64,000 nt of DNA from a virus (IMGVR_UViG_3300022723_000184:128001-192000); one strand, 5' to 3'; shown: positions 1,546-61,353, counted from the first letter of the stretch. Program-made: numbers and translations. The notes: a model not told the origin generated them from the sequence alone.

Positions 1546-1615
1546 AGCTGTCTCGCCTTGTCTTGCCTTTAAGTCGGCGAGCTGCATTGTCCGTATTCTA
1601 CTCAGGTGAGTCTAG

Positions 1616-5829: not shown

Positions 5830-6020
5830 GCCTTGGCGCTGGCGGCAGAATGTCGTGGTCGCGGTCGCGGTCGTGGTCGCGGTCGTGGTCGTGGTCGTGG
5901 TCGCGGTCGTGGTCGGGGTCGCGGTCGTGGTCGCGGTCGTGCTCGGGGTCGCGGTCGTGGTCGCGGTCGTGGTCGCGGTCGTGGTCGTGGTCGCGGTCGG
6001 GGAGCGACAACAACCGATAG
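5826..6020 (+). CDS. Arg/Ser/Trp-rich low-complexity peptide
   Basis: ATGA overlap with upstream gene; encoded by the hexamer repeat. Confidence 0.5.
   Translation: MSLGAGGRMSWSRSRSWSRSWSWSWSRSWSGSRSWSRSCSGSRSWSRSWSRSWSWSRSGSDNNR
5852..6001. repeat. tandem hexamer repeat (GGTCGT/GGTCGC), about 25 units
   Basis: directly visible. Confidence 0.97.
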
Positions 6021-7160: not shown

Positions 7161-8048
7161 TTGGCCAAACGCAAGTTCACGATGCACGAGCAGATGATCT
7201 TCGACGTAATCCGCAAACAGGCGGGCACGCTGTCGAAGGCGGCGTTGGAAGGCGTGATGAACGCCGTCGACGCCAACGCCTCCGAGATCAAGATCACGCT
7301 CGACGAGGGCAGGATGACCCTGTCCGACGACGGTAAGGGGTTCCGGTCCAAGAAGGAGATCGAAGACTACTTCGAGACCTTCGGCCGACCTCACACAGAG
7401 CAAGAGCAGAAGGTCTTCGGCAAGTTCCGTATGGGTCGCGGGCAGATGTTCGCGTTCGGCAGGAACCTGTGGGAGACCGGACGATTCCGGATGGACGTCG
7501 ACGTCAAGGACAAGGGCCTGGATTACGACCTGAAGGAGCTGTCCGAGAAGGAGCGGGCGCCCGGTTGCTCGATCACGATCGAGCTGTACGACCAGTTGCT
7601 GCCGAGTGACGTCGACAAGACGGTCAGGGACCTGGAGCTGTGGTGCAAGTGGGCGCCGCTCCGTGTGGTGCTCAATGACCGGGAGATCAGTTCGGATCCC
7701 GCTGCCCAGGAGTGGCAGTACGAGACGGACGAGGCCTACGTCAGTCTGACGGGTGTCGGCGGTCTGACGATCTACAACCAGGGCGTGTTCGTCATGGACA
7801 TTCCGGCCTACCGGTACGGGACGGGCGGCGAGGTCGTGACCAAGATGGGTCAGGATCTTGACGTCAACTTCGCCCGCAACGACATCCTGGCTTCGTGCCC
7901 GATCTGGAAGAAGGTCTCGCCCTTCATCGACCAGCGGGCCACGGAGAAGAACACCAAGAAGCGGGCCCTGGACGACGGCGCCCGCCAGAGGCTGGCCCAC
8001 CAGTTGAAGGCCGGCGAAGAGATCGAGTCTCATCTTCTAAACCGATGA
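7161..8048 (+). pseudogene. GHKL (HATPase_c/MORC-like) ATPase, 3' end replaced by an inverted CRISPR repeat
   Basis: EGVMNAVDA, DDGKGF, GKFRMGRGQ boxes; terminal residues SHLLNR and the stop codon come from the repeat at 8027-8062. Confidence 0.7.
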
Positions 8049-8062
8049 GCAGGTATTAAGAT
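8027..8062 (-). CRISPR. solitary CRISPR repeat, 35/36 identical to the array consensus
   Basis: minus strand reads ATCTTAATACCTGCTCATCGGTTTAGAAGATGAGAC. Confidence 0.95.
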
Positions 8063-8406: not shown

Positions 8407-9074
8407 AAGGGGTCGGATACGCGGCCTAACCAGTTTACCACCGTCGGGCCGAGGTGGTAGGCGGCGGTCTGCTCCATGTAGACCACGCGATCGCGTTCGG
8501 CCCACTGCTTCGCAAATTGGATGTCGCAGGTCTCGGCGGTCTGAAACCGTTCGGGGTACGGCTTCCGTTGCGAGGTGTGGTAGAGCTGGAAGTAGCCTCG
8601 GACCAGGCCGTGCTCGAAGGCGGCTGAGTCCGGGGGGATGTACGCCAGGCGGGTGTGATACGGGATGAACGGGTCGGCCTGCTTGATCGCATAGCGAGAG
8701 GGTACGACGAACCTTGGCGCCCCGTACAGCTTAGTAGGGTCAGGGACGACCCGGTGCAGTTGGTCGATCGTCTTCTCGGGGATCACGATGTCCGCGTCCA
8801 GGTGTAGTATCCAACCAGGGGACGCATCGAAGATGCCAGCGCACCGGCTTAGCAGGTGCGACAGTGCCTTGCCCTTGTTGAACGGTGCACCGCCCTCGTA
8901 GAAGGCGTCGGTGCGGACAAGAGAAAAGCCCAGGTCCTTGCAGACCTGGGCCGTGTGTTCGTCTTGGTTGTCGGTCACGACGACGACCCTGGGGGTCAGC
9001 CGCTTCCAGGACAGGCCGGCGATCTCCAGGGTGTCGGCGTAGTTGACGCTGACACTGACGATCGTCGGCTGCAT
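8403..9074 (-). CDS. glycosyltransferase (GT-A fold)
   Basis: FNKGKAL and LHLDADI (DxD) motifs; ATG at 9074 coupled to upstream stop. Confidence 0.75.
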   Translation of the reverse strand: MQPTIVSVSVNYADTLEIAGLSWKRLTPRVVVVTDNQDEHTAQVCKDLGFSLVRTDAFYEGGAPFNKGKALSHLLSRCAGIFDASPGWILHLDADIVIPEKTIDQLHRVVPDPTKLYGAPRFVVPSRYAIKQADPFIPYHTRLAYIPPDSAAFEHGLVRGYFQLYHTSQRKPYPERFQTAETCDIQFAKQWAERDRVVYMEQTAAYHLGPTVVNWLGRVSDPF

Positions 9075-20475: not shown

Positions 20476-20915
20476 GCGAGGACCACAACTGGAAAGTGTT
20501 GGAAGACGCGATCGACATTGCGGCGACCGGCCACCAGAAACAGATAAGGGCCGACGGTCGACCCTACATCGTCCATCCCGTAAGGATGGCGATGCGCCTG
20601 CTGCAGAAACACGGGCCGCTGCTGGCCGCGGTGGCCATGCTCCACGACGTCGTGGAGGACACCGACTACACGCTCGACGACCTGGCCGGGCTGTTCCCGC
20701 AGCACGTGGTTAAGGCGGTCGACAACCTGACGCGGCGTGACGGCGAGACATACGATGACTTCGTCGAGCGGTGCGGGGCCAACCCCTGGTCCCGCCTAGT
20801 GAAAATGCACGACCTGCGAGACAACATGCGGGACGTGGACGAGTTCAAGCCGTCGCTCCGCAAGCGATACGACAAGGCCCTCGGCCGCCTGGAGGAGATC
20901 GATGCCCAAACATAA
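20472..20915 (+). CDS. HD-domain hydrolase, SpoT/Mesh1-like
   Basis: H..Q.R..G.PYIVHP, LHDVVEDT, VKMHDLRDN. Confidence 0.85.
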   Translation: MSEDHNWKVLEDAIDIAATGHQKQIRADGRPYIVHPVRMAMRLLQKHGPLLAAVAMLHDVVEDTDYTLDDLAGLFPQHVVKAVDNLTRRDGETYDDFVERCGANPWSRLVKMHDLRDNMRDVDEFKPSLRKRYDKALGRLEEIDAQT

Positions 20916-21315
20916 GCCCGGGATCAACCCGGCCACCCTGCGGCCCTCCAAGACGGCGGCCGGCAACTTGCTGTGCCTGACGATCTCCAGGATGGTCATC
21001 GGGAACAAGGACCAGTTCGTGCGGCGAGTGCAGTTGTCGCTGTTCGACGAGAAGACCGAGTTGTCCGTAGGCTTCGCCATGTTCCCGGAGGACCAGTTCA
21101 TCGACGCCCTGGGACACCTGTTCCCTCGGGGCGAGTTGGACGGCGCCAACCTGGAAGACGGGCCGGAGGACGTCGAACAGCTCAACAAAGAGCTGGACGG
21201 CCTCAACGACCTGATCGATGGCAACGCCTTCAACAAGGACTCTGAGAGATACCGGGCCATGGCCCGGCAGGCCGAAATCCGCGAGATCCTGGCCGAACTA
21301 AGAGAAAACACATGA
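20902..21315 (+). CDS. hypothetical protein
   Basis: ORF overlapping upstream gene, codon bias. Confidence 0.6.
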   Translation: MPKHKPGINPATLRPSKTAAGNLLCLTISRMVIGNKDQFVRRVQLSLFDEKTELSVGFAMFPEDQFIDALGHLFPRGELDGANLEDGPEDVEQLNKELDGLNDLIDGNAFNKDSERYRAMARQAEIREILAELRENT

Positions 21316-21539
21316 GCCATTTTGTGGCTTTGGTGTTCACAGACCGTGAGCCCGACCAGCACAGGTTGCAGGAAAGCCGGTCGAGTTGGAGTTCGACGGC
21401 CACGGCGGCCCCGGGTCGGCCCTCGGGGGCTGGCGGATCCTGACCGAGGTCCTCTGATGACCCTGTTCTCGGAGCGGGCCACCCGAAGGGCCTACTGGGC
21501 CCTGGGTGGTCCGGAGAACAACCGCTGCTGGCGGCCGAG

Positions 21540-21575
21540 TCGCCAACAGGCTGCTCATCGACAAGAGGATGAGAC
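21540..21575 (+). CRISPR. degenerate solitary repeat upstream of cas12m
   Basis: CTGCTCATCG-(7 nt)-GATGAGAC vs repeat CTGCTCATCG-(8 nt)-GATGAGAC; 6-bp stem intact; ends 20 nt before the ATG. Confidence 0.7.
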
Positions 21576-21595
21576 AAAAAAAAAAGGAATAGCGC

Positions 21596-23365
21596 ATGGG
21601 ATTCAATAAGGACCCAGAGGCCCGCTGTGTGGTTTACCAGTACGGCGGCAAACATCCGACGGAAAACGAAGACGAAGCGATCAACCAGCTCGCCAAGGCG
21701 AACCGTTTTCGGAACCGGCTCGTTGAGTTGGAGCTACAACGACGTGAAGAATACCACGCTGCGTTCTCGGGTTACGGAGACCTGGCGGAGCCGTCAAATC
21801 AGCTTGAGACGCTCAACGAGCAGCTGACCGCTGCGGTGGCAGAACTTAAGGCGTGGAGACAATTGAACGGCACTCGAAGTCAACACCCGACGCTAACCCC
21901 GCAGATCGTTTCGCTACGGGCTCAGGCTCGCCAGCTACGGACACAGATCAAGTCGATCAAGGAAGCGGCCAAAGGCGATCCTACGGTGCAGGCGGCAATC
22001 GAAAAAGCAAACCAGCAGCACCGAGATCAGACCAAAGCTGCGTACGGCGCTGTAAGAGAATCGAACCCGGAGGCCGAGGACGCCAGAGACCGGCATGGGT
22101 TGTTCTGGGGAACGGCCCTCCTAGTTCAAAGGGCAGCGACACAGTTCCAGAAGGGCCCTCCCCCGAGGTACAAACGTTTCGACGGGACGGGAACTATCGG
22201 CGTGCAGCTGCAGAACGGGATGTCTGTGGAGGATCTGTTCACTCCGGGCGGCAGCGTCTGGATTGACCCCGTTCCTCCGGAGGCCTGGGACCCGCAGACG
22301 CCGAGAGGTCAAAGGCGAAAACTCGCAAGAACGATGCTACACATGCGGATCGGCGGGAAGCCGCAGGCCTGGGTGATTCTAAAGCTACCTGTCACCGTGC
22401 ACAGACCGCTGCCTGCAGGAAAACTTATCAAGTGGGTCACGGTCACTCGGCGTAAGTACGGTTCACAGGCGCGGTGGTATGTAAACGTCACGACGGATAT
22501 CAGGTCTGGTGGCACGCTTCACGATGATGTTGCGGCTGCCGGATTTGTGGGTGTCGACCTGGGTTTCAGGTTGTTCAAGCCCGCAGAAAGCAGCTCAGGC
22601 AAGCGATCGCTCCGAGTGGCTGTATGGGCCGGAGATGACGGGGAGACAGGCGAACTTCGCCTCGACGCGAGGTTTATGTCCTACATCTCAAAGGCCGACG
22701 GTTTGAGGTCGATCCGGGACAAGCGGCTTGATCAGATCAGAGCGGCGCTGCTTCCGTTGTGTGACGAGGCGGGTACGCCGGAGTGGTGGAAAGACGACAC
22801 TCAACACATGGCCAAATGGAGGTCTCCTCGAAAGCTGTATCACTTGCTCCACAAGTGGAAAGACAACAGGTGGGATGGCGACAAAACGCTGTTCGATCTG
22901 TTGGTTAAGTGGGTAGTTCAGGACCGTCACCTCCACGTGTGGGAAGCCAACAATCGCCGAAAAGTAGCGGCTCGTCGCCTGGACATGTACCGGAACCTGG
23001 CGGCCTCTTTGAGGCGCAAGTACGCGGTTATCGGGATCGAAGACATCGATTGGCGGATCTGGAGCAAGTTGGCCCTGCCCGAAGAAGAGGAGACCAAGTC
23101 AAAGAAGTTCCGTGTTCAAAAGAAACATGCGGCGGTCGGTCTGCTTGCAGAGACGCTGTCGAATTGCGGGGCACAGGTTGTACGTTTGGATCCCGCTTAC
23201 ACGACGAAGCGGTGCAACGCCTGCGGCAAGATCACCGAATTTGACGCTGACCGGCACCTGCGACATACGTGCGAACATTGCCATGCGGAGTGGGACCAAG
23301 ACTACAATGCGGCAAAGAACCTGCAAGACATGGCGAGCGGCAACGCCGTAACGCAAACCGCGTAG
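21596..23365 (+). CDS. cas12m: type V CRISPR effector, Cas12m (V-U1/V-M)-like, 589 aa
   Basis: RuvC-I GVDLG, RuvC-II IGIED, zinc finger CNAC/CEHC, RuvC-III DQDYNAA; RFDGTGTIGVQLQ and WRSPR motifs recalled from Cas12m; array 137 bp downstream. Confidence 0.85.
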   Translation: MGFNKDPEARCVVYQYGGKHPTENEDEAINQLAKANRFRNRLVELELQRREEYHAAFSGYGDLAEPSNQLETLNEQLTAAVAELKAWRQLNGTRSQHPTLTPQIVSLRAQARQLRTQIKSIKEAAKGDPTVQAAIEKANQQHRDQTKAAYGAVRESNPEAEDARDRHGLFWGTALLVQRAATQFQKGPPPRYKRFDGTGTIGVQLQNGMSVEDLFTPGGSVWIDPVPPEAWDPQTPRGQRRKLARTMLHMRIGGKPQAWVILKLPVTVHRPLPAGKLIKWVTVTRRKYGSQARWYVNVTTDIRSGGTLHDDVAAAGFVGVDLGFRLFKPAESSSGKRSLRVAVWAGDDGETGELRLDARFMSYISKADGLRSIRDKRLDQIRAALLPLCDEAGTPEWWKDDTQHMAKWRSPRKLYHLLHKWKDNRWDGDKTLFDLLVKWVVQDRHLHVWEANNRRKVAARRLDMYRNLAASLRRKYAVIGIEDIDWRIWSKLALPEEEETKSKKFRVQKKHAAVGLLAETLSNCGAQVVRLDPAYTTKRCNACGKITEFDADRHLRHTCEHCHAEWDQDYNAAKNLQDMASGNAVTQTA

Positions 23366-23489
23366 CCGATCGATCTGTAGTGTGTACAAGTAGTTGTGGC
23401 GGCTACGGAGGGCCGCTGCACTTCTGTCAAGGGTGCCGACGATCGAACCGCTCGAAAACGGCCTGATAACCATGTACGCACGTGTAGGT

Positions 23490-23495
23490 TATAAT
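23490..23495 (+). promoter_or_regulatory. -10 box of the array leader
   Basis: perfect TATAAT 7 nt before repeat 1; no consensus -35. Confidence 0.6.
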
Positions 23496-23502
23496 GCCGC
23501 GG

Positions 23503-24247
23503 ATCGTAATACCTGCTCATCGGTTTAGAAGATGAGACGCGGCATTGATTGCCTTCTTGAGTTGCTGCTCCAACATCGTAATACCTGCTCATCGGTTTAG
23601 AAGATGAGACATCGCCGCATCGCTGGAAGCGGGCGTGGCGTCGGCGGATCGTAATACCTGCTCATCGGTTTAGAAGATGAGACCTTTCTCTGTGTCCGAG
23701 ATAACGGGGTCACTAATGTCATCGTAATACCTGCTCATCGGTTTGGAAGATGAGACAAGCATCCGAGCAGCCGCTACAAGGACAAGATCGGCATCGTAAT
23801 ACCTGCTCATCGGTTTAGAAGATGAGACTAGTCGGGCAATTGCTCGAACGGCACAGAGATATCGTCATCGTAATACCTGCTCATCGGTTTAGAAGATGAG
23901 ACGCTTACCGGTGGCCGAGGCCAAGGCGCGATGGAGAACATCGTAATACCTGCTCATCGGTTTAGAAGATGAGACACGGTGGATCCGGTCGAGCGGCTGA
24001 TCCTTCACATCATCGTAATACCTGCTCATCGGTTTAGAAGATGAGACCCGGTGATCGACGCGGTCCTCGAGAACGCCGAGGACATCGTAATACCTGCTCA
24101 TCGGTTTAGAAGATGAGACAAGTGGATCAGGTTCTTCTCATCGTAATACCTGCTCATTGGTTTAGAAGATGAGACGCGGACTGCCCCGAGATGCGGCGCC
24201 GGCTGTGGGTAATCGTAATACCTGCTCATCGGTTTGGAAGATGAGAC
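23503..24247 (+). CRISPR. CRISPR array, 11 x 36-bp repeats and 10 spacers (36-38 nt, one of 20 nt)
   Basis: repeat ATCGTAATACCTGCTCATCGGTTTAGAAGATGAGAC with CTCATC/GATGAG stem; single-base variants in repeats 4, 10 and 11. Confidence 0.99.
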
Positions 24248-24302
24248 GAAGATGAAACAGAAGGCGAGACAACGACTTGATCGCTAAGGATGGAGAAAAT
24301 AG

Positions 24303-24878
24303 ATGACGACAACCAAAAAGACCCCGCGAGACATGTTGCGGGAAAGTCTGGCCAACCACAGGCTGGTTGAGCTAGTCCGGACGACGGAGGCCGTGGTCTT
24401 CTCGCTCCAACGCGAAGGGACCAGAAACATGTCGACGATGATCACGTTCACCCGCGAGGGGATCGTGCTCCAAGGAGACCTGACGCCTCAGACCTACGGG
24501 TCGGTTAGCGCCAAAGGCTACGGCGAGCGGTGGTTCGCTAGCAAGCTCAGCGTCAGCTATCTCTGCGAGAAGTTCTTGCAGCGGAAGTTCCGCCTGGAGC
24601 TGTTCAAGCATGCTCTTGGAGATTCTGGGTGGCGGTGCGCCGCGGGGATCTCCGAGGAGAACGCCAACCAAATCGCCAGCGAGACCGAGCTGGAATGCGG
24701 GTGCGACGCCTACGGGAAGCTAATGGACCTCGGCCTCGACCCTGATACCGTTCCAGGCGTCGGCTACGATCCTCGGGAGGCCGACGTCCTGTGCGAGATA
24801 CAACGGCGGTTCGCCGAGCTGCACCGAGAGATATACGGAGACCAGGTGCCCGAGATCCGGGTACCTGAACGATCATGA
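24303..24878 (+). CDS. hypothetical protein
   Basis: RBS GGAG; GIVLQGDL and YLCEK motifs. Confidence 0.7.
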   Translation: MTTTKKTPRDMLRESLANHRLVELVRTTEAVVFSLQREGTRNMSTMITFTREGIVLQGDLTPQTYGSVSAKGYGERWFASKLSVSYLCEKFLQRKFRLELFKHALGDSGWRCAAGISEENANQIASETELECGCDAYGKLMDLGLDPDTVPGVGYDPREADVLCEIQRRFAELHREIYGDQVPEIRVPERS

Positions 24879-35568: not shown

Positions 35569-35697
35569 CGTGCGGTGGTGGCCTTGGTGTGGTCTCGCCC
35601 TGTAGGTTGGCGAGCTGGCATTGTTAATGCCCAAGACCTGTGGTGGTCTTCACATCTTAGCGCCAGCCACCCACCAACGCAAGGAAAGTGGTGCGGC

Positions 35698-46581: not shown

Positions 46582-46617
46582 GTCGTAATGTCCGCTCACC
46601 GGCTTGGAAGATGAGAC
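46582..46617 (+). CRISPR. solitary degenerate CRISPR repeat upstream of the recA-like gene
   Basis: GTCGTAATGTCCGCTCACCGGCTTGGAAGATGAGAC, 30/36 to repeats 4 and 11; 11 nt before ATG 46629. Confidence 0.88.
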
Positions 46618-61113: not shown

Positions 61114-61353
61114 CGGCTCAAAACGCGTCAAAATACATGCAGGCAACTTAGCCTGCTCAATCAGGACCCCGGAAGGCTCCGTCGGGCATTTCTGCTCGGC
61201 GGGGTCTTTTTCTTTTCACATCCATGGAACAGACCCAGTACCAGATGAGCCGACCTTCGGGTCACCTGAGACGGGACCGGTCTGTTCCCTGGATCTGAAC
61301 CACGTGGCGGCCGGAGCCGCCGAAACAAGACACCTCTCAAGTAGGAGAACGTC

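What the first reader, a model, noticed from the sequence alone, without database searches (positions are those of the whole stretch)
21540..21598. Repeat-like hairpin in the 5' leader of cas12m: possible autoregulation
Seen: CTGCTCATCG-ACAAGAG-GATGAGAC keeps 10 and 8 exact bases of the repeat and the full CTCATC/GATGAG stem, followed by A10, GGA and the ATG 20 nt later. Inference: effector bound to this element would treat the RBS and start codon as its spacer, or cleave the mRNA, giving negative feedback. Caveat: CTCATCGACAAG is also a common coding run here (for example near 381), and the 5' third of the repeat is poorly conserved. The A10 run could be a slippage-tunable spacer or an assembly artefact.
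Basis: partly seen in the sequence, partly recalled or inferred. Interest (0 to 1): 0.75.

Follow-up and report, generated by a model that had tools for sequence, protein, structure and literature searches.

The report
Worn CRISPR repeat leading phage cas12m
A 202-kb phage that carries its own DNA-binding CRISPR protein (Cas12m) has a worn single copy of its CRISPR repeat hairpin 20 bases before that protein's start codon, so the protein may bind its own message and limit its own synthesis; this has not been tested.

Summary
Observation confirmed. At 21551-21575 (+), the 10 and 8 bases that flank the repeat hairpin are exact. The G, the 6-bp helix and the terminal AC are all kept. An A10 run, AAGGAA and the cas12m ATG (21596) follow. 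The match is not chance.

It is the weakest copy in the genome. A covariance model built without it gives 16.4 bits (E 0.05 in the window, 0.15 in the genome). The second helix of the crRNA scaffold cannot form.

Context supports a function:
- The genome has 17 other solitary repeats with covarying stems.
- Seven of the eight plus-strand copies, this one included, lie 11-24 nt before an ATG, with the ribosome-binding site where a guide would sit.
- Five other distant viral cas12m lineages carry a repeat-like unit upstream of the gene. The closest homologue (46% identity) does not.
- No CreR-type DNA target was found.

The element sits at the left edge of a lower-GC cas12m-array module.

Best reading (about 45%): a low-affinity Cas12m site in its own mRNA leader that gives translational feedback. 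Binding, cleavage and feedback are all untested.

The scan noted the same layout earlier, in this genome and in other phage genomes. The nearest published parallels are solitary repeats upstream of cas12a (function unknown) and CreR.

The parts
21539..21552 (+). Diverged 5' part of the repeat-like unit (GTCGC, a 2-nt insertion, altered middle). It cannot pair with the loop, so the second scaffold helix is lost.
   Evidence: Alignment A3; structure counts on the family; my reading of the sequence.
21553..21575 (+). Conserved core: G, 6-bp helix CTCATC/GATGAG around an 8-nt loop, then the AC tail. The G, both helix arms and the AC tail are identical to the array repeat; including the CT before the G and the first loop base, 18 of 18 flanking bases match.
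   Evidence: covariance-model hit at 21542-21575, 16.4 bits.
21576..21585 (+). A10 tract occupying 'guide' positions 1-10. It is the only homopolymer A/T run of 8 or more in the genome.
21584..21589 (+). Shine-Dalgarno-like AAGGAA, 6 nt before the ATG, at 'guide' positions 9-14.
   Evidence: inference.
21596..23365 (+). cas12m (589 aa), with D321/E482/D569 and a four-Cys TNB domain. GC3 is 0.67 against 0.86 in neighbouring genes.
   Evidence: Pfam PF07282; PDB Cas12m hits, E 6e-67 and 1.5e-26; alignment A1.
23503..24247 (+). CRISPR array of 11 repeats of 36 nt, with TATAAT 7 nt (GCCGCGG) before repeat 1. It forms the right edge of the lower-GC module.
21525..21549 (+). Strong 9-bp hairpin directly 5' of the repeat-like unit, part of a structured 280-nt leader (z -2.98).
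21457..21609 (+). Possible 50-codon upstream ORF (SD GAGG). It runs through the hairpin and A10 and ends 11 nt after the cas12m ATG. It has no Pfam match, and only its first 28 codons look coding (GC3 0.86).
46582..46617 (+). Sister solitary repeat, 11 nt before the ATG of a RecA-like gene. It shows the same 'repeat then RBS' layout.
8027..8062 (-). Sister solitary repeat (35 of 36 identical) with a TACAAT box 7 nt (ACCGAGG) upstream. It points antisense into the 3' end of a plus-strand gene.

Best explanation
The element is a degenerate solitary copy of the phage's own type V-M (Cas12m) CRISPR repeat. It is transcribed as part of the cas12m 5' leader.

It keeps the G:A-closed 6-bp helix and the terminal AC that Cas12m reads. 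It has lost the second scaffold helix, so it should be a weaker binding site than true crRNA handles.

The proposed mechanism runs as follows. When free Cas12m exceeds the supply of array and solitary-repeat RNAs, it binds this hairpin. The next ~17-20 nt (A10, the Shine-Dalgarno and the bases up to the ATG) then lie where a guide lies in the protein. This keeps the 30S subunit off and lowers Cas12m synthesis. Cleavage 5' of the hairpin, as in pre-crRNA processing, may accompany binding.

Shown: the sequence anatomy, family membership at the hairpin level, and recurrence of the layout. Inferred: transcription through the element, binding, occlusion, and the sign of the effect.
For: 1. The match is not chance. 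18 of 18 bases of the G, helix, flanks and AC are identical to the array repeat. Meanwhile the loop (about 4 of 9) and the 5' part (indels) have diverged. A contiguous gene-conversion tract or uniform decay would not leave both arms intact around a changed loop.

2. In Cas12m2, C(-1) and the G:A pair are read base-specifically by His269 and Arg270, and the 5' seven nucleotides are disordered (PMC10442227). H269 and R270 are invariant in the 14-protein alignment, and VHR aligns with VHR of Cas12m2.

3. The genome holds 17 other solitary units. Their hairpin is 98.9% paired, with compensatory changes at 5 of 6 pairs, which points to selection on the RNA fold.

4. Seven of the eight plus-strand solitary units lie 11-24 nt before an ATG, with the RBS at guide positions 1-18.

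5. Repeat-like units lie upstream of cas12m in L012, L032/L033 and L052 (0 of 400 random windows score as well). L042 has two compensatory stem pairs, a -10 box and an A-rich guide start. L018/L019 have such a unit 33 nt before the start. Density upstream is about 6.6 times that elsewhere, 3 hits where 0.46 are expected.

6. The RBS and A10 are unpaired in the predicted fold, so repression by occupancy is feasible.

7. Cas12m enzymes bind and process their own repeats without tracrRNA (PMC11013384).
Against: - The covariance-model score is marginal: 16.4 bits, E 0.05-0.15.
- The second helix (5' segment with loop) cannot form, whereas it is kept and covaries in most sister copies.
- The closest homologue (46% identity, L009) has a 44-nt intergenic region with no such element.
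- Only about one in five or six viral cas12m loci have one. In L012, L032 and L052 the unit lies 46-95 nt from the start, so the RBS is not in the guide position there.
- No promoter was found upstream, so transcription through the element is inferred.
- No RNA or read data were available.
- No Cas12m is known to regulate translation.
Confidence: 0.45

Rival explanations
1. It is a relic. The unit is a decaying boundary repeat of the horizontally acquired cas12m-array module, or the remains of an upstream mini-array. It has no present role.
For: GC falls from about 0.64 to 0.56 at about 21540 and recovers at about 24300. The unit and the last array repeat therefore bracket the module. cas12m GC3 is 0.67 against 0.86 for neighbours. 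The second helix is lost and the model score is weak. The closest homologue lacks it. Degenerate repeats and solitary repeats are reported as remnants at type V-A loci (PMC10120712).
Against: Both helix arms and their flanks are perfectly conserved around a diverged loop. Upstream units recur in distant loci with compensatory or wobble-preserving stem changes. Placement relative to the RBS is consistent at seven genes. Split identities of 10 and 8 nt are too short to serve as a recombination handle (inference).
Confidence: 0.25
2. It is an mRNA processing or stabilising site with a positive or neutral effect. Cas12m cuts the long structured leader or polycistronic transcript 5' of the hairpin and stays on the new 5' end, or the hairpin alone protects the 5' end. 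Mature cas12m mRNA results, rather than repression.
For: Cas12m cleaves pre-crRNA within the repeat, upstream of the scaffold (PMC11013384 and PMC10442227). No promoter is visible in the 280-nt leader, and the upstream genes are on the same strand. Sister units sit between terminator-like hairpins and an RBS, for example at 67849 and 174582.
Against: The 5' part of the unit, where cleavage would occur, is the most diverged part. A bound 68-kDa protein whose guide channel holds the RBS is hard to reconcile with efficient initiation (inference). No RNA-end data exist.
Confidence: 0.15
3. It is a CreR/crlRNA-like guide acting on DNA. The unit plus its downstream 20 nt would be a degenerate crRNA that directs Cas12m to a partly complementary, PAM-flanked site at the cas12m promoter or elsewhere, repressing transcription.
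For: This is the proven mechanism for type I-B, I-E and V-A systems (10.1101/2023.03.10.532045). Cas12m is a binder that blocks transcription (PMC11013384, PMC10442227). L032 and L052 have two-unit mini-arrays upstream of cas12m, and L052's has its own promoter.
Against: No site with at least 8 of 10 seed matches and 13 of 20 total matches lies near the gene. Counts equal the shuffled-guide expectation here and at seven other upstream guides. The seed would be A10, and no other A/T run of 8 or more exists in the genome. The self site is flanked by GAC, not a T/C-rich PAM. No second pseudo-repeat and no own promoter were found.
Confidence: 0.08
4. The 50-codon ORF 21457-21609 is translated through the hairpin and A10, and cas12m is expressed by termination-reinitiation. 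On this view the hairpin is incidental or only slows ribosomes.
For: An ATG with GAGG 7 nt upstream opens a frame that ends 11 nt after the cas12m ATG. Its first 28 codons have GC3 of 0.86.
Against: There is no Pfam match. GC2 of 0.68 is atypical, and the last 22 codons have low GC3. This reading does not explain the identity to the repeat.
Confidence: 0.05

Closest known systems
Solitary repeat units (SRUs) upstream of cas12a in type V-A loci (Shmakov et al. 2023, PMC10120712)
   Same: Both are a single, low-identity repeat-like sequence next to the 5' end of a tracrRNA-less Cas12 effector gene. Both are conserved in some clades only. Neither has a conserved target for the adjacent 'spacer'.
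   Different: This one is type V-M, not V-A, and phage-borne. It lies 20 nt from the ATG with the RBS in the guide position, and it is one of 18 solitary units in the genome. The published SRUs have no assigned mechanism.
CreR / crlRNA degenerate mini-CRISPRs (types I-B, I-E, V-A; bioRxiv 10.1101/2023.03.10.532045) and tracr-L of Cas9
   Same: In both, a degenerate repeat near the cas gene is proposed to let the effector sense its own abundance relative to crRNAs and repress its own synthesis.
   Different: CreR acts in trans on promoter DNA through a partly complementary, PAM-flanked target. No such target exists here. The proposed action here is in cis on the mRNA, with occupancy of the RBS.
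Cas12m crRNA scaffold (MmCas12m2 and GoCas12m structures; PMC10442227, PMC11013384)
   Same: The G:A-closed 6-bp helix and the 3' AC immediately before the guide are shared. The length of the following segment (20 nt) equals a guide.
   Different: The loop is 1 nt shorter. The helix formed between the 5' segment and the loop is absent, and there is a 2-nt insertion in the 5' part.
Viral solitary repeats as RNA anti-CRISPRs (Racr; PMC10651486)
   Same: Both are a solitary CRISPR repeat carried in a phage genome.
   Different: Racrs mimic the host's repeats to poison host effectors. This unit mimics the phage's own array, sits inside the phage's own cas leader, and has no promoter of its own.
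Translational operators that mimic a protein's primary RNA ligand (ribosomal-protein operons, MS2 coat, T4 RegA/gp32; from general knowledge)
   Same: The logic is shared: a weaker mimic of the preferred RNA ligand overlaps the RBS of the protein's own mRNA, giving feedback once the primary ligand is saturated.
   Different: The protein family is unrelated. No experimental evidence exists here.

Membership tests
Cas12m (type V-M) CRISPR repeat / crRNA scaffold | A 6-bp helix closed by a G:A pair and followed by a terminal C(-1), directly before the guide. | tested here: met
   G21553, CTCATC/GATGAG and AC at 21574-21575 are identical to the array repeat. The feature definition comes from PMC10442227.
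Cas12m (type V-M) CRISPR repeat / crRNA scaffold | A second helix between the 5' segment and the loop, coaxial with the first. | tested here: not met
   In the family, columns 5-11 pair with columns 20-25 in 80% of cells, with covariation. In the finding, the loop GACAAGAG and the 5' segment CAACAGGC cannot form it.
Cas12m (type V-M) CRISPR repeat / crRNA scaffold | Overall similarity to the locus's own repeat, scored by a model that excludes the candidate. | tested here: inconclusive
   16.4 bits; E 0.047 in the window and 0.15 in the genome. It is the lowest family hit, and the best noise hit scores 13.6 bits.
Cas12m (type V-M) CRISPR repeat / crRNA scaffold | Bound and processed by the cognate Cas12m. 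| not testable with these tools
   This needs a gel-shift or processing assay. The complex predictor takes proteins only.
Cas12m effector (the protein downstream) | Sequence homology to solved Cas12m proteins, a TNB zinc finger, and the WED His-Arg pair that reads C(-1). | tested here: met
   PDB 23vw E 6e-67 and 8hhl E 1.5e-26; PF07282; H269/R270 invariant. The RuvC triad is D-E-D, unlike the H-D-D of Cas12m2.
CreR / crlRNA regulatory mini-array | A pseudo-spacer partly complementary to a PAM-flanked site at or near the cas promoter. | tested here: not met
   One weak hit, inside cas12m, against 0.82 expected from shuffled guides. The A10 seed has no other match in the genome.
CreR / crlRNA regulatory mini-array | Its own promoter and a second (degenerate) repeat after the pseudo-spacer. 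| tested here: not met
   No promoter-like site in 20800-24400. No further model hit between 21576 and 23502.
SRU adjacent to a cas12 gene (Shmakov et al. 2023) | A standalone repeat-like sequence in the intergenic region next to the effector gene, conserved among related loci. | tested here: inconclusive
   Position is met. No close relatives were found in which to test conservation. Present in 5 other distant viral lineages and absent from the closest homologue.
RNA anti-CRISPR (Racr) | A promoter-driven solitary repeat that mimics the host's CRISPR repeat. | not testable with these tools
   The host is unknown. The unit matches the phage's own array and lacks a promoter.
Intrinsic terminator | A GC-rich hairpin followed by a U tract on the transcribed strand. 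| tested here: not met
   A10 follows the hairpin on the plus strand. On the minus strand the T tract precedes the hairpin. The scan did not list it.

The most novel reading that the evidence does not exclude
Cas12m in this phage has been co-opted as an RNA-binding translational regulator of a phage regulon. Solitary repeat handles placed directly before ribosome-binding sites let the protein occupy the start regions of at least seven phage mRNAs. These encode a RecA-like recombinase, three proteins not annotated here, and, according to earlier scan notes that I did not check, a baseplate protein and a small membrane protein. The seventh mRNA is its own. In it the weakest handle and a target-less A10 'guide' would form a feedback loop that matches Cas12m supply to the number of handles.
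Probability: 0.3. Interest if true: 0.85.

Novelty: new variant of a known kind. Interest (0 to 1): 0.6.

Why it matters
Self-regulation of CRISPR effectors by repeat-like RNAs is known for Cas9 (tracr-L) and for types I and V-A (CreR). In every published case it works on promoter DNA. Solitary repeats upstream of cas12a have no assigned mechanism.

A repeat handle inside the effector's own mRNA, with the RBS where the guide lies, would be a different and simpler circuit. The protein would titrate itself against its RNA partners at the level of translation.

If true, it would also explain why this phage scatters handles in front of other genes. It would offer a compact, programmable translational switch built from a 589-aa protein. 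If the element is only a relic, the finding still marks the edge of a horizontally acquired cas12m module.

Tried and rejected
1. Close relatives, to test conservation and A-tract length. A single-protein scan of viral contigs found none. Pattern scans of viral contigs found nothing, and scans of metagenome contigs gave 6 hits that are all unrelated coding or chance matches. The 87-kb contig of the closest homologue is not held beyond 21.7 kb.

3. Self-targeting by array spacers or solitary-repeat guides at the cas12m leader. Only chance-level short matches were found.

4. CreR-like targets for eight upstream guides in six loci. Counts were at the shuffled expectation.

5. Rfam. No family matched in 21200-24400 at E up to 1.

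6. Sigma-70 promoter scan. Nothing was found in 20800-24400. The phage encodes its own RNA polymerase according to earlier scan notes, so this result is weak.

7. A strict structural motif (G, 6 bp, AC) upstream of other cas12m genes. It found only L018 and L032, because helix length and closing bases differ between repeat families. Own-repeat alignment worked better.

9. Terminator reading: rejected, because no U tract follows the hairpin.

Full report
**What is there**

The window is bases 128001-192000 of a 201,946-bp IMG/VR virus record with 62.5% GC. It carries a large terminase, a primase, helicases, a DNA polymerase and an SbcC-like protein.

ORF 21596-23365 (+) encodes a 589-aa protein. 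Its only Pfam domain is the Cas12f1-like TNB zinc finger. It matches solved Cas12m structures: 23vw at E 6e-67, Cas12m2 8hhl at 1.5e-26, and UnCas12m4a at 9e-22.

An array of 11 repeats of 36 nt lies 137 nt downstream at 23503-24247, preceded by TATAAT. The repeat's 3' hairpin faces the spacers on the plus strand, so the array and the gene are co-oriented.

**The observation**

The element is exactly as described: CTGCTCATCG, a 7-nt gap, GATGAGAC at 21551-21575, then A10, AAGGAA and the ATG at 21596. The hairpin is predicted to form, and the A10/RBS segment is predicted to be single-stranded.

Eighteen fixed bases at this spacing cannot be chance. Even the loose motif is expected only 0.03 times per window. 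A10 is the only A/T run of 8 or more in the genome, where 0.025 are expected.

**How good a repeat copy is it**

According to the Cas12m2 structure (PMC10442227):
- The scaffold has a 6-bp helix closed by a G:A pair.
- A terminal C(-1) is read by His269 and Arg270.
- A second helix stacks coaxially on the first.
- The seven 5' nucleotides are disordered.

In this phage's repeat, the 6-bp helix is CTCATC/GATGAG, with G(-24):A(-2). The second helix pairs UAA-ACC of the 5' segment with GGU-UUA of the loop.

I aligned 17 array and solitary copies (A2). The first helix is 98.9% paired, with compensatory changes at 5 of 6 pairs. The second helix is 80% paired, with two covarying pairs.

The finding keeps the G, the first helix and the AC perfectly. 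Its loop is 1 nt shorter and different, and its 5' part has a 2-nt insertion. The second helix therefore cannot form.

A covariance model built without the finding scores it 16.4 bits. That is E 0.047 in the window and 0.15 in the genome. It is last of the family, and the best noise hit is 13.6 bits.

So it certainly derives from a repeat, but it is an incomplete scaffold. Both arms and their flanks are perfect while the loop between them has changed. That pattern argues for constraint on the helix rather than uniform decay or a conversion tract. H269 and R270 are invariant in the protein family.

**Genome context**

The model finds 11 array repeats and 18 solitary units in the genome, including the finding.

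Eight solitary units are on the plus strand, like nearly all genes nearby. Seven of these lie 11-24 nt before the ATG of an ORF supported by GC3. Their genome coordinates, with the distance to the ATG in parentheses, are:
- 67849 (16)
- 72751 (12)
- 100873 (24)
- 101887 (17)
- 125944 (16)
- the finding (20)
- 174582 (11)

In every case the Shine-Dalgarno lies within 'guide' positions 1-18. The gene after 174582 is RecA-like.

Most minus-strand units have a TATACT, TATAAT or TACAAT box 7-9 nt upstream, like the array leader. They point antisense into the 3' ends of plus-strand genes. The finding has no such box.

The finding is therefore one member, the weakest, of a class with the layout 'handle then RBS'.

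**Other cas12m loci**

The closest homologue (P0002, 46% identity, L009) has a related repeat downstream. Its upstream gap is 44 nt with no repeat-like unit.

A profile scan gave 53 viral loci. I aligned each locus's own repeat to the 300 nt upstream of its gene and compared the score with 400 random windows. L012, L032/L033 and L052 reached 0 of 400. Details for the loci that carry a unit:
- L012 keeps the stem through two G-U changes.
- L052 has a TTGACT-17-TATAAT promoter and two units, one with a compensatory pair.
- L032 has a full unit, a 23-nt spacer and a truncated repeat.
- L042 has a -10 box, a unit with two compensatory pairs, an A-rich start of the 'guide', and the ATG 28 nt on.
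- L018/L019 have a family-like hairpin 33 nt before the start and no array within 3.5 kb.

Over 25 non-redundant loci, upstream hits are about 6.6 times denser than elsewhere, with 3 found where 0.46 are expected. The feature is recurrent and enriched but present in a minority. Its distance to the start varies from 20 to about 95 nt.

**Module edge**

GC drops from about 0.64 to 0.56 at about 21540 and recovers at about 24300. cas12m has GC3 of 0.67 against 0.86 for its neighbours. The unit and the last array repeat therefore bracket a lower-GC, probably acquired, module. This fits either a unit that travels with cas12m or a boundary relic.

**Mechanism**

Cas12m proteins bind and cut their own pre-crRNA within the repeat, use no tracrRNA, bind DNA next to T/C-rich PAMs without cutting it, and form a 17-bp heteroduplex (PMC11013384 and PMC10442227).

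The DNA copy of the 'guide' is flanked by GAC, not a PAM. No other site matches the guide. A CreR-type action on DNA is therefore unlikely.

No promoter can be placed between the hairpin and the RBS, so the hairpin is most likely in the mRNA. This is inference, since the scan found no promoter at all.

I therefore favour in-cis binding of Cas12m to its leader. The incomplete handle would make it a low-affinity site that fills only when true handles are saturated. The A10/RBS segment would then be held where a guide lies, which blocks initiation.

A10 may serve as an unstructured ribosome landing site. It may also act as a seed that has no target in a 62% GC genome. Both ideas are speculation.

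The rivals are a relic, a processing or stabilising site, a trans-acting guide, and a 50-codon upstream ORF that spans the hairpin.

**Comparison with known systems, and novelty**

The closest published case is the solitary repeats upstream of cas12a, whose function is unknown (PMC10120712). The closest proven mechanism is CreR, which acts on promoter DNA.

A 2026 preprint on phage-borne Cas12m does not mention such units in the passages that a search for 'Cas12m' returned; I did not read the rest of it.

Earlier notes of this scan describe the same layout in this genome and in other phage genomes. I used them as leads and re-derived the points cited here.

**Verdict**

The autoregulation reading is reasonable and partly supported by comparative evidence, but it is untested. 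It is weakened by the lost second helix and by the element's absence from the nearest homologue.

Noticed in passing
window 8027-8062 (-), 8827-8862 (+), 35592-35627 (-), 46582-46617 (+), 1550-1593 (-); elsewhere in the genome at 5222, 7620, 46773, 53583, 67849, 72751, 100873, 101887, 105824, 124039, 124139, 125944: There are seventeen further solitary Cas12m repeat units. Several have fully covaried stems. Most minus-strand ones carry their own -10 box and read antisense into the 3' end of the preceding plus-strand gene.
   Followed up: partly
genome 124139-124174 (-) and window 61125-61153 (-): The 'guide' after the solitary repeat at 124139 matches 28 of 29 bases at genome 189125-189153. 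The similarity extends beyond guide length and includes a TTGACG box and a shared upstream terminator-like hairpin. It may be a duplicated promoter region rather than a target. A second unit at 124039-124074 lies 64 nt further on, which makes a two-unit mini-array.
   Followed up: partly
window 24120-24139: Spacer 9 of the array is only 20 nt, against 36-38 nt for the others. The last three repeats each carry one substitution.
   Followed up: no
window 21596-23365: This Cas12m has a canonical D321/E482/D569 RuvC triad, unlike the H-D-D of Cas12m2. Its GC3 (0.67) is far below that of neighbouring genes (0.86), which suggests recent acquisition.
   Followed up: partly
L018 and L019 (3415-3437, gene start about 3471): This viral cas12m homologue has a single repeat-like hairpin in its leader and no array within 3.5 kb downstream. 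It may be an effector whose only handle is in its own mRNA.
   Followed up: partly
L009 11914-11921 and the solitary units of this genome: The linker CCGAGG directly before the first repeat of the array in the 46%-identical homologue's locus also precedes several solitary units here (ACCGAGG). CCGAG precedes the finding itself. The conserved unit may be a few bases longer than 36 nt.
   Followed up: no
window 5852-5999: A tandem array of a 12/18-nt GC-rich unit (GTCGCGGTCGTG, about 12 copies).
   Followed up: no
viral loci L011-L063: Cas12m homologues are common on large IMG/VR viral contigs, with 53 loci, many on contigs of 90-200 kb. Several of those loci also hold solitary repeat-like units away from the array, for example L052 at 761, L032 at 8281 and L036 at 7275 (-).
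   Followed up: partly
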